Part shown: piece after piece, positions 13,071 to 16,498 of the stretch
Numbering within the stretch: the first letter of the stretch is position 1
How the letters are laid out: every line of letters begins with the position of its first letter
Source: Escherichia coli
GTDB taxonomy: Bacteria > Pseudomonadota > Gammaproteobacteria > Enterobacterales > Enterobacteriaceae
Reading direction: 5' to 3' (one strand)
Length of the DNA stretch: 64,000 nucleotides
Assembly: GCF_017348835.2 (NCBI RefSeq)
Contig: NZ_CP071375.1
Notes under the pieces: generated by a model
Seen by the model: only the letters and a program-made list of their open reading frames with translations
Database searches by the model: none
Told to the model about the DNA's origin: nothing
Position numbers and translations under genes: made by a program

Positions 13071-16000
13071 CTGCATCACTGGCTAATAATGGTGCCAGCG
13101 ACAACAAAACTGTGCATTTTATTGGCGACACAGCGGCGGCAAAAATTATCGAGTTGACGCCTGTCCCAAACAGCATAATCGCCGGTACCCCGCAGAACAG
13201 CTCCGGCAGCGTCATCACCGCCACAGTCGTTGATAATAATGGCTTTCCGGTGAAAGGTGTGACTGTGAACTTCACCAGCAGAACAAATTCTGCCGAAATG
13301 ACGAATGGCGGCCAAGCCGTAACGAACGAACTGGGTAAGGCTACCATCACTTATACCAATACCCGCTCCTCGATAGAATCAGGAGCGAGACCGGATACCG
13401 TTGAGGCCAGTCTGGAAAATGGTAGCTCCACGCTTAGCACATCAATTAATGTCAATGCTGATGCGTCTACGGCACATCTCACTTTGCTACATGCACTTTT
13501 TGATACAGTCTCCGCAGGCGAGACAACCAGTCTGTATATTGAGGTGAAGGATAATTACGGCAACGGTGTCCCCCAGCATCAGGTAACCCTCAGCGTTTCA
13601 CCAAGTGAAGGCGTGACCCTCAGTAATAACGGTATATATACTACCAACTACTACGGCTATTTTTACGCAAGCTTTACCGCTACAAAAGCCGGGGTTTATC
13701 AAGTGACGGCAACCCTCGATAATGGCGATTCGATGCAACAAACAGTGACCTACGTGCCGAACGTCGCGAATGCCGAAATCACGCTGGCAGCCTCGAAGGA
13801 TCCGGTGGTTGCCGACAATAACGATTTCACGACACTAACAGCAACAGTCGCTGATACAGAAGGCAATGCGATAGCCAACGCTGAGGTAACATTTACTCTG
13901 TCGGAAGATGTGAGGGCGAACTTCACGCTGAGCGATGGCGGTAAAGCGATTACTAATGCTGAAGGCAAAGCGAAAGTCACGCTGAAAGGTACAAAAGCAG
14001 GCGCTCATACCGTGACAGCATCAATGGCTGGCGGTAAGAGTGAGCAGTTGGTGGTGAACTTTACTGCGGATACGCTCACTGCGCAGGTTAATCTTAACGT
14101 TACCGAGGACAATTTCATCGTCAATAACATTGGGATGACCAAACTTCAGGCAACAGTGACTGATGGAAACGGCAACCCGTTAGCCAATGAGGCGGTAACA
14201 TTCACACTACCGGCAGATGTGAGCGCAAGCTTCACTCTCGGACAAGGCGGTTCCGCCATTACAGACATCAACGGCAAGGCTGAAGTTACACTGAGCGGTA
14301 CAAAATCCGGCACCTACCCCGTGACAGTTAGCGTGAACAATTATGGTGTCAGTGATACGAAACAGGTGACTTTGATTGCCGATGCTGGTACCGCTCAATT
14401 GGCTGGTTTTACCGCATCATCGGGCTCATTTACCGCGAGCACAACCGAGGGCGCGACCCTGACGGCAAGCGTCACAGACGCTTACGGCAACCCGCTAGAA
14501 GGCATCATGGTCAATTTCCACGGCAGCGCCACGCTGAGTAACACCAACGTCGAAACGGATGCTCAGGGTAAGGCAGAAGTTCTTGTGACCAGCACCATTG
14601 CAGGAACGAAAGTAATTACAGCTAATCTGGCAAATGCACCTACCGAAGCCGCCATGCGAACGTTGACTGTCAAAGCAGATATTGATTCTGCGACGATCAC
14701 CAGTCTGGAAATGCCTGAAGGTCAGGTAATAATCAGAGAACCCATAGCGGTTAAAGCACACGTCGACGACCAGTTTGGCAATCCAGTTGCTGACCAGCTT
14801 GTGACATTCAGTGCAGAGCCATCAAGTTTTAACATGGTCATTAGTCAGGATACGGTTTCTACGAATAGGCAGGGTATAGCTGAGGTCACCATGACGCCCG
14901 AAAGATACGGTTCGTATACTGTGAAAGCATCCCTGGCGAATGGATCCTCTTATGAGAAGGATCTGGTGGTAATCGCTCTAAGACTAACACTCACAGCATC
15001 AAGTCAACTTATCGGCGTCAATGACCCATCGGGAGCAACTCTGACTGTAAGGTTAACTCATGCAAACGGGGCTCCATTGAGCCATGAACTCGTTACCTTT
15101 AGCGTAACGCCCGAAGGTGCAACATTAAGTAGCCAAACGGCGACAACCAACACTTCAGGTGAGGCACAAGTCGTTCTGACCAGCAATAAAGTCGGTACAT
15201 ATGCGGTGACAGCATCGATTCATAGCGGCGTAATTATTCAGACACAGACAACCGTGAAGGTTACTGGCAACCCAAGCACCGCACATGTTGCTAGTTTTAT
15301 CGCTGATCCGTCGACTATCACGGCCAACAATAGTGATATCAGCACGCTAAAGGCTACTGTTGAGGATGGCAGTGGTAACCTGGTCGAAGGGGTCAATGTA
15401 AACTTCGTCTTAAAAAGCGGCTCTGCCACATTGACGTCATTAACAGCGGTGACCGATCAAAACGGACTCGCGACAACGAGCGTGAGAGGAGCTATGACGG
15501 GGAGCGTCACGGTAAGCGCAGATACGAGCTATGGTGGAGCGCAAACAGTAGATATAACGCTGGTGGCAGGCCCGGCAGACGCTTCGCAGTCCGTCCTTAA
15601 GAACAACCGGTCATCACTGAAAGGGGACTTTACCGAAAGTGCTGAACTACATCTTGTTCTGCACGATCTATCAGGCCATCCGCTCAATGTTTCTGAAGGG
15701 ATGGAATTTGTGCAATCAGGTACCAACGTGCCCTATGTGCAAGTTAGTGCAATTGACTACAGCAAAAATTTCTCCGGCGAGTACAAAGCCACTGTTACAG
15801 GCGGCGGAGAGGGTATCGCAACGCTGATCCCCGTGTTGAATGGTGTTCACCAGGCAGGTCTGAATACCACGATAGAATTCATTCGCGCGGAAGCCAGACC
15901 AATGACCGGTACAGTGTCAGTCAATGGTGCGACCCTACCGGCAGCTTCATTCCCTTCGCAGGGATTTACCGGGGCGTATTATCAGTTGAATAATGACAAC

Positions 16001-16498
16001 TTTGCACCAGGAAAAACGGCGGCTGATTATACGTTTTCAAGCTCTGCCTCCTAGGTTGATGTTGATGCTTCCGGTAAGGTGACATTCAAAAATGTCGGAG
16101 ATAGAAATGCTGTAATAATCACGGCGACCCCAAGATCAGGTGGCGCTATTTACCAAACGCAAGTACGGGTGAAGGGCTGGTGGGTGAATCACGGTAATAA
16201 CCTCATGCAATTAAGCCAGGCTGAAAACTACTGCAGCAACCAGGTCGGTAATGGCTACACCCTTCCCCGCGCGGACCTTTTAAGCAATGGACACATGCGG
16301 CGCGAAATAGGGTCACTGTATGGTGAATGGGGAGATATGGGAAATTACATGAGCGAAGCTGATTTTTATTCAATGGTATATTGGTCATCTAATTCTGCAG
16401 GCGCAGGCCAACAATACATTGTCTCCCTGGAAACAGGGACACAAAACACTTATCAAACGCATGAATTTTTTTATGGGGCGTGTTATAAACAGATTTAA
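13071..16498 (+). pseudogene. yeeJ: yeeJ inverse-autotransporter adhesin remnant: 5-prime truncated at the IS and interrupted by an in-frame TAG at 16052-16054
   Basis: 980-aa ORF of repeated Ig-like (Big_1-type) domains begins right at the IS end with no signal or beta-barrel region. ORF 16079-16498 is in the same frame and encodes the C-terminal lectin-like domain. Confidence 0.75.

What the first reader, a model, noticed from the sequence alone, without database searches (positions are those of the whole stretch)
13071..16498. yeeJ is doubly inactivated: 5-prime truncation plus an in-frame amber codon before the C-terminal lectin-like domain
Beyond the IS-associated loss of the N-terminal export regions, the Ig-repeat frame is interrupted by TAG at 16052-16054, and the same frame continues into ORF 16079-16498. 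This is a single nonsense change rather than a frameshift and represents ongoing decay of an adhesin gene.
Basis: seen in the sequence. Interest (0 to 1): 0.35.

Follow-up and report, generated by a model that had tools for sequence, protein, structure and literature searches.

The report
Decayed yeeJ adhesin gene remnant
This is the dead back half of the E. coli surface adhesin gene yeeJ, hit first by a single-base stop codon, then by an IS629 insertion, then by an 8-kb deletion; it is an ordinary pseudogene that public annotation already flags.

Summary
TAG at 16052-16054 lies in the frame that runs from 13070 to the TAA at 16496-16498. That frame encodes the C-terminal 1,142 codons of the inverse-autotransporter adhesin YeeJ.

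A near-identical intact allele (2,666 aa, loci L026-L028) has TGG (Trp) at this codon. In L027 the G/A at 16053 is the only difference across 13071-16498, so this is a point nonsense change and not a frameshift.

The 5' end abuts a 1,310-bp IS629 (11761-13070). Relative to the intact arrangement, 7,988 bp are missing. That includes the yeeJ promoter, signal peptide, beta-barrel and the first 1,524 codons.

Related assemblies give the order of events:
- The amber codon came first: 10 contigs carry TAG in an otherwise uninterrupted yeeJ.
- IS629 then inserted (strain F2_81, 3-bp duplication GTT).
- The deletion came last (window, PE164, L025).

RefSeq already annotates this pseudogene in strain PE164 as "internal stop; missing N-terminus", and yeeJ decay is documented in the literature. 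Interest is low.

The parts
11761..13070 (+). IS629 copy (IS3 family, 1,310 bp; orfA 11815-12141, orfB 12141-13028). It forms the left boundary of the yeeJ remnant and has no target-site duplication, because its two flanks come from different genes.
   Evidence: It is 99.5% identical over 1,310 bp to the element annotated as IS629 in phage BP-4795. It differs at 1 base from the second copy at 24253-25562.
13071..16051 (+). yeeJ remnant upstream of the stop, from codon 1525 to codon 2518 of the 2,666-aa intact protein. It holds eight Big_1/Invasin_D3-type Ig-like repeats and the first half of the last (invasin-D4-like) Ig domain, which starts at about 15911.
   Evidence: Translation is open. 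Pfam gives Big_1 with 8 stretches, E 8e-119. The region is identical to intact allele L027. The junction maps to codon 1524.3.
16052..16054 (+). Amber codon TAG replacing Trp-2519 (TGG); the change is G to A at 16053.
   Evidence: Trp is present in 38 of 44 distant homologues.
16055..16189 (+). Second half of the invasin-D4-like Ig domain (model residues 59-103), now downstream of the stop.
   Evidence: Pfam Invasin_D4 spans the stop once it is restored. The AlphaFold model places strands at residues 59-103. Foldseek matches invasin 1CWV.
16190..16498 (+). C-type lectin-like cap domain (about 102 codons) plus the natural TAA stop at 16496-16498.
   Evidence: phmmer hits invasin D4-D5 in 1CWV, E 2.7e-8. 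The model has pLDDT 96.6. Foldseek gives 1CWV E 5e-13, intimin 1F00 E 1.3e-8, then snake-venom C-type lectin-like proteins. The literature states that the last 103 aa of YeeJ form a C-type lectin domain (PMC5595812).
8861..11760 (-). 5'-truncated DUF8371 gene on the other side of the IS. It is the left edge of the 7,988-bp deletion; 388 N-terminal codons of the 1,354-aa protein are lost.
   Evidence: Comparison with L026-L028, where the gene is 1,354 aa.

Best explanation
The region is a non-functional remnant of the chromosomal inverse-autotransporter adhesin gene yeeJ, produced by three successive lesions in one E. coli lineage.

1. A G-to-A transition changed Trp-2519 (TGG) to amber. This cut the last Ig-like domain in half and removed the C-type lectin-like tip.
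2. IS629 later inserted after codon 1524.
3. A further IS629-associated event deleted 7,988 bp. This removed the promoter, start codon, signal peptide, LysM region, beta-barrel translocator and the first 1,524 codons, and left a single IS629 abutting the 3' fragment.

What remains in the window has no start, no export signal and no barrel. It therefore cannot yield a surface adhesin, and the amber codon is now a silent scar inside a dead fragment. The sequence changes and their order are shown directly. Loss of function is inferred from the known requirement of type Ve adhesins for an N-terminal signal peptide and beta-barrel.
For: Stop and frame.

Point substitution: TGG is present in five reference alleles and in a near-identical intact allele. 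In L027 position 16053 is the only difference across 13071-16498.

Domain context: the intact reference has IAT_beta at residues 144-419 and 16 Big_1 stretches. The remnant has 8 Big_1 stretches. The C-terminus matches the invasin D4-D5 superdomain by sequence, by Pfam, and by a pLDDT-96.6 model matching 1CWV and 1F00.

IS629 identity and ends.

Deletion: the window and PE164 are collinear, mtfA-asnT-island-IS629-yeeJ 3' part-GT9-shiA. Exactly 7,988 bp are missing relative to L026. PE164 has no full-length match to the yeeJ 5' part.

Order of events: 10 contigs of the same clone carry TAG with yeeJ uninterrupted at the IS site, giving a 2,518-2,527-aa ORF. They are 99.7-100% identical to the window over the 4-11 kb of downstream sequence that each contig shares with it. 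F2_81 has TAG plus a simple IS629 insertion with duplication GTT and keeps the 5' part.

Existing annotation: PGAP annotates the same feature as a pseudogene.
Against: Nothing contradicts it.

Open points:
- The exact mechanism of the last step is unresolved. The IS in the window is in the opposite orientation to the one in F2_81, and its junction is 4 bp further into yeeJ, so simple IS-IS homologous recombination does not explain it.
- Whether the amber-only 2,518-aa protein was already non-functional was not tested.
- Absence of the 5' half elsewhere in the window's own genome is inferred from PE164, which matches the window to within 3 bases over the 17.2 kb compared.
Confidence: 0.95

Rival explanations
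1. The TAG is a sequencing or assembly error in a repetitive adhesin gene, and the gene's 3' part is really uninterrupted.
For: The YeeJ paper warns that some reported yeeJ frameshifts might be assembly artefacts (PMC5595812).
Against: The same TAG is in PE164, F2_81 and all 14 independently assembled contigs from NCBI, ENA and Logan. It is a substitution in non-repetitive sequence, not an indel in a repeat.
Confidence: 0.01
2. The stop is a natural gene boundary: an Ig-repeat protein followed by a separate conserved small gene (ORF 16079-16498).
For: The 139-aa ORF is called as a 'hypothetical protein' in public records (WP_140435046.1 and others).
Against: All five other alleles tested, and the near-identical intact allele, read through. 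In 59 distant homologues the matched unit spans this position within one protein, and 38 of the 44 of them that were aligned have Trp there. The stop falls in the middle of a beta-sandwich domain in a high-confidence model. The 139-aa ORF alone hits no Pfam family.
Confidence: 0.01
3. The 5' half was not lost but moved elsewhere by an IS629-mediated inversion, so the gene is split rather than truncated.
For: The sister strain F2_81 does carry an IS629-bounded inversion of this region and keeps the 5' half.
Against: In PE164 and the window the flanks are collinear with the ancestral order, and exactly 7,988 bp are missing. Searches with three pieces of the 5' half did not return PE164 among full-length matches, although it would be 100% identical. 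The gene would be inactive either way.
Confidence: 0.03
4. The amber allele was not decay but a selected, functional 'tip-less' YeeJ variant, and only the later IS events were decay.
For: Amber-only alleles, otherwise intact, occur in at least 10 assemblies that differ from each other by a few SNPs, so the allele persisted for some time.
Against: The stop cuts a domain in half rather than at a domain boundary, which would probably leave a misfolded end. SNPs within yeeJ among amber carriers are 6 non-synonymous to 1 synonymous, consistent with relaxed constraint although the numbers are too small to test. The same lineage then tolerated IS insertion and deletion.
Confidence: 0.1

Closest known systems
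YeeJ, inverse autotransporter (type Ve) adhesin of E. coli (Martinez-Gil et al. 2017, PMC5595812)
   Same: Same chromosomal locus, downstream of mtfA-asnT and upstream of the GT9 gene (yeeL), shiA and amn. It has the same Big_1 repeat passenger and C-type lectin-like cap. The C-terminal 250 aa are 68% identical to the K-12-type protein. The near-identical intact allele is 2,666 aa, of the long-variant size class.
   Different: Only codons 1525-2666 remain, with Trp-2519 changed to amber. The promoter, signal peptide, LysM region and beta-barrel are gone. The allele is a rare mosaic: only 2 of 5,426 complete genomes are at least 99% identical in the 3' end.
Other yeeJ pseudogenes in E. coli
   Same: Decay of yeeJ is common. 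An intact gene was found in only 40% of 96 and 35% of 126 complete genomes, and 15 further strains were frameshifted. Examples seen here are CRE1540 (frameshifted) and UTI89 (a remnant with frameshift, stop and both ends missing).
   Different: Here the lesions are a nonsense substitution plus IS629 insertion and deletion, and intermediates for each step survive in sequenced relatives.
Yersinia invasin D4-D5 and intimin D2-D3 superdomains (PDB 1CWV, 1F00)
   Same: The restored C-terminal 205 aa fold as an Ig-like domain packed against a C-type lectin-like domain. Foldseek gives TM 0.81 and rmsd 2.4 A to 1CWV.
   Different: Sequence identity is only 19-23%. The ligand is unknown. In the window the unit is split by the stop and cannot be made.
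IS629-associated gene inactivation and adjacent deletions in E. coli (IS-excision-enhancer literature, PMC9943667)
   Same: IS629 sits at the breakpoint, and the deletion starts exactly at an IS end.
   Different: Whether IEE is involved was not tested. Orientation and junction differ from the sister strain in a way that is not yet explained.

Membership tests
YeeJ / inverse autotransporter (type Ve) adhesin gene | N-terminal signal peptide, LysM region and IAT beta-barrel (PF11924) | tested here: not met
   These parts are absent from the window: the remnant starts at codon 1525. IAT_beta is present at residues 144-419 of the intact reference allele. The window therefore holds a fragment of the gene, not a functional member.
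YeeJ / inverse autotransporter (type Ve) adhesin gene | Passenger built of tandem Big_1 Ig-like repeats | tested here: met
   Pfam Big_1 matches 8 stretches with E 8.4e-119 in 13070-16051.
YeeJ / inverse autotransporter (type Ve) adhesin gene | Orthologous position between asnT/mtfA and the GT9 gene-shiA-amn | tested here: met
   Annotated context in PE164, 06-00048 and CRE1540. An asnT island lies in between, as the literature describes for this site.
YeeJ / inverse autotransporter (type Ve) adhesin gene | C-terminal C-type lectin-like cap | tested here: met
   The sequence is present at 16190-16495 but lies downstream of the amber codon. The fold was confirmed on the restored sequence.
Pseudogene by nonsense mutation | In-frame stop at a codon that is a sense codon in orthologues, with homology continuing beyond it | tested here: met
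   TGG is present in five alleles and in the near-identical L026-L028, where 16053 is the only difference in L027.
Pseudogene by truncation | Loss of the start codon and upstream region relative to orthologues | tested here: met
   A 7,988-bp deletion bounded by IS629.
IS629 (IS3 family) | About 1.3-kb element with terminal inverted repeats, orfA/orfB with programmed frameshift, 3-bp target duplication, and high identity to reference IS629 | tested here: met
   The element is 1,310 bp and 99.5% identical to the IS629 of BP-4795. PGAP annotates a programmed frameshift. The copy in yeeO has duplication GTC, and the F2_81 copy in yeeJ has GTT. The copy at 11761-13070 has no duplication, as expected after a deletion.
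C-type lectin-like domain | Ligand or carbohydrate binding | not testable with these tools
   Only fold similarity was shown.

The most novel reading that the evidence does not exclude
The amber allele (W2519*) on its own, found in at least 10 assemblies with an otherwise intact 2,518-aa export-competent YeeJ, may be a circulating functional variant. Such a variant would display an adhesin without its lectin-like tip, giving altered receptor specificity or immune evasion, rather than being the first step of decay. Separately, IS629 hit the same 4-bp spot of yeeJ in three junction forms and both orientations. This could reflect IS629 targeting the end of an earlier copy.
Probability: 0.1. Interest if true: 0.3.

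Novelty: already known. Interest (0 to 1): 0.1.

Why it matters
It matters little beyond strain bookkeeping. This pig-associated E. coli lineage cannot make YeeJ, a biofilm-promoting adhesin that many E. coli strains have already lost. The modest added value is a clean stepwise record of gene decay, with every intermediate still present in public assemblies: intact, then nonsense, then IS insertion, then IS-bounded deletion. That record could serve as a textbook example or as a lineage marker.

Tried and rejected
1. AlphaFold on a shallow alignment of 16 E. coli-only sequences gave pLDDT 34 and was discarded. A 44-sequence alignment of distant homologues fixed this.
2. A PDB profile search with the shallow alignment hit only intimin Ig repeats and said nothing about the lectin-like domain.
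3. The word-indexed protein search returned mostly fragments and no allele at least 99% identical. Exact look-up of the post-stop ORFs was what found the relatives.
4. I first read the F2_81 and window IS junctions as the same site, and therefore as an inversion by IS-IS recombination. Sequence inspection showed opposite IS orientation and a 4-bp offset, so that model was dropped.
5. PADLOC found nothing for the HEPN and DUF8371 neighbours.
6. A scan of the metagenome or genome collections for the TAG k-mer was considered, but was not needed once exact protein look-ups had succeeded.

Full report
**Observation.** The window has TAG at 16052-16054. Translating from 13070 gives 994 open codons, the stop, then 147 more codons ending at TAA 16496-16498. 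The ORF list shows 13112-16054 and 16079-16498 in the same frame.

**Identity and context.** The window between 7500 and 24700 matches E. coli PE164 (NZ_CP114128.1). There are 3 mismatches in 17.2 kb, all inside the second IS copy. PGAP annotates exactly this stretch in PE164 as a pseudogene: [quoted passage not shown]. Downstream lie a GT9 glycosyltransferase gene, shiA, amn, yeeN and yeeO. Upstream, beyond an island, lie asnT and mtfA. That is the yeeJ locus. The remnant has eight Big_1 repeats. An intact reference (strain 06-00048, 2,667 aa) has the inverse-autotransporter beta-barrel at residues 144-419 and 16 Big_1 stretches.

**The stop is a point substitution.**
- DNA alignment with 06-00048 and CRE1540 shows TGG where the window, PE164 and F2_81 have TAG.
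- Protein alignment with five alleles, including the O157:H7 and K-12 types, shows an invariant Trp. All five read through to the shared ...CYK(N/Q/K)x end.
- Three assemblies (L026-L028) carry the same asnT island and essentially the same yeeJ allele, intact at 2,666 aa. In L027 the only difference from the window across 13071-16498 is G instead of A at 16053.
- Among 44 distant homologues (27-73% identity), 38 have Trp in this column.

**What the stop cuts.**
- The restored C-terminal 244 aa match Yersinia invasin (1CWV) across D4-D5, E 2.7e-8.
- Pfam Invasin_D4 spans the stop position, at 26.7 bits just below the 27-bit cut-off.
- An AlphaFold model built on 44 diverse homologues has pLDDT 96.6.
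- That model matches invasin 1CWV (E 5e-13, TM 0.81), intimin 1F00 (E 1.3e-8) and then snake-venom C-type lectin-like proteins.
- In the model the Ig-like domain occupies residues 11-103 and the lectin-like domain about 104-205. The amber codon is residue 58.

The stop therefore halves the last Ig-like domain and lies 46 codons before the lectin-like cap. The literature puts that cap at the last 103 aa of YeeJ (PMC5595812). "Before the lectin-like domain" is true but imprecise.

**The 5' truncation.** The element at 11761-13070 is IS629. It is 1,310 bp and 99.5% identical to the annotated IS629 of phage BP-4795. A second copy at 24253-25562 interrupts yeeO with a GTC duplication. Relative to L026, the window lacks exactly 7,988 bp. 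The missing stretch comprises:
- the first 388 codons of a 1,354-aa DUF8371 gene;
- a 518-aa OLD/GajA-like ATPase gene;
- the yeeJ promoter;
- yeeJ codons 1-1524.

The flanks are collinear with the ancestral order. PE164 gives no full-length match to three probes from the 5' half. This is a deletion, not an inversion.

**Order of events.** Exact look-up of the post-stop ORFs found them in public collections. Their contigs could be read, and all 14 carry TAG.

| Stage | State of yeeJ | Where seen |
|---|---|---|
| 0 | Intact, 2,666 aa, TGG | L026-L028 |
| 1 | W2519 amber, otherwise uninterrupted (2,518-2,527-aa ORF with beta-barrel) | 10 contigs: L012-L014, L016-L018, L021-L024 |
| 2 | Amber plus simple IS629 insertion (duplication GTT), 5' half retained | F2_81, L019 |
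| 3 | Amber plus 7,988-bp deletion with one IS629 at the junction | window, PE164, L025 |

The stage 1 contigs are uninterrupted at the later IS site (...GACTGTTA|CTGCATC...). Those that extend far enough also have an intact yeeO (five contigs) and the intact ATPase gene upstream (six). They are 99.7-100% identical to the window over the 4-11 kb of downstream sequence that each shares with it.

Among amber carriers, the SNPs inside yeeJ are 6 non-synonymous to 1 synonymous, with no further stops or frameshifts. That is compatible with relaxed constraint, but the numbers are too small to test.

**Unresolved detail.** The IS abutting the yeeJ 3' part occurs in three forms in this clone:
- reverse-complemented IRL|GTTACTGCATC (F2_81, L019);
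- IRR|GTTACTGCATC (L020);
- IRR|CTGCATC (window, PE164, L025).

Homologous recombination between IS copies cannot change which IS end touches a flank, so a transposase-type step is needed. There are two candidates. One is a secondary head-to-head insertion next to the first copy, followed by IS-IS recombination. The other is an IS629 adjacent deletion of the kind described with the IS-excision enhancer (PMC9943667). I could not decide between them.

**Comparison with what is known.** Published surveys found an intact yeeJ in only 35-40% of complete E. coli genomes, with additional frameshifted copies. Here too CRE1540 is frameshifted and UTI89 retains only a remnant. IS629 is a well-known cause of gene inactivation and deletions. 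This particular pseudogene is already flagged in RefSeq.

**Verdict.** The feature is an ordinary, already annotated pseudogene. Its only added interest is that every intermediate of its decay survives in public data.

Noticed in passing
window 24253-25562 (- strand): A second IS629 copy interrupts the MATE transporter gene yeeO as a simple insertion with a 3-bp duplication (GTC). The only 3 differences between the window and PE164 over the 17.2 kb compared lie in this copy (24412, 24435, 24436).
   Followed up: partly
window 13070/13071; L004 6567/6568; L020 about 114; L025 about 28: There are three different IS629-yeeJ junctions within one clone: both IS orientations at the same GTT site, plus a form lacking 4 bp (GTTA). 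IS-IS homologous recombination does not explain this. It suggests IS629 re-targeting next to its own end, or IEE-type adjacent deletion.
   Followed up: partly
window about 3175-11760 (- strand genes); L026 1-11557: An island at asnT carries an integrase, an integrase-domain gene, IS66, mazEF, an HTH gene, a HEPN_LA2681 protein (7244-8848) and a DUF8371 protein. In intact relatives the DUF8371 protein is 1,354 aa; here 388 N-terminal codons are lost. In intact relatives the island also carries a 518-aa ATPase matching AriA/GajA defence models (E 1e-23 to 1e-20), and that gene is deleted in the window. PADLOC has no model for the HEPN or DUF8371 proteins. This may be an undescribed defence gene trio.
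   Followed up: partly
L010/L011 (F2_81, NZ_CP043542.1 1943034-1963706): The sister strain F2_81 has a roughly 18-kb inversion bounded by two inverted IS629 copies, one in yeeO and one in the island. It carries yeeJ (with its own IS), GT9, shiA, amn and yeeN. A solo 26-bp IS629 end remnant lies right next to one copy (L010 about 29290).
   Followed up: partly
window 17079-18131 (- strand): The GT9 glycosyltransferase gene downstream of yeeJ is intact here (350 aa). It carries an internal stop in K-12-type strain EK2009 and in CRE1540, so this neighbouring gene also decays repeatedly.
   Followed up: no
window 17475-17915, 21496-22269, 23379-24226: SNPs between otherwise near-identical amber-carrying strains cluster in three patches (the GT9 gene, yeeN, yeeO). 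These look like short recombination tracts rather than point mutation.
   Followed up: no
window 14263-15259 and 16158 onward: yeeJ is mosaic. Identity to the 06-00048 allele drops from about 94% to 74-88% in 14263-15259. About 2,200 of the 5,060 genomes with a match cover less than 80% of the 15500-16700 query, and those sampled (UTI89 and similar) match only up to about 16158. Only 2 of 5,426 complete genomes share this 3' end at 99% identity or more.
   Followed up: partly
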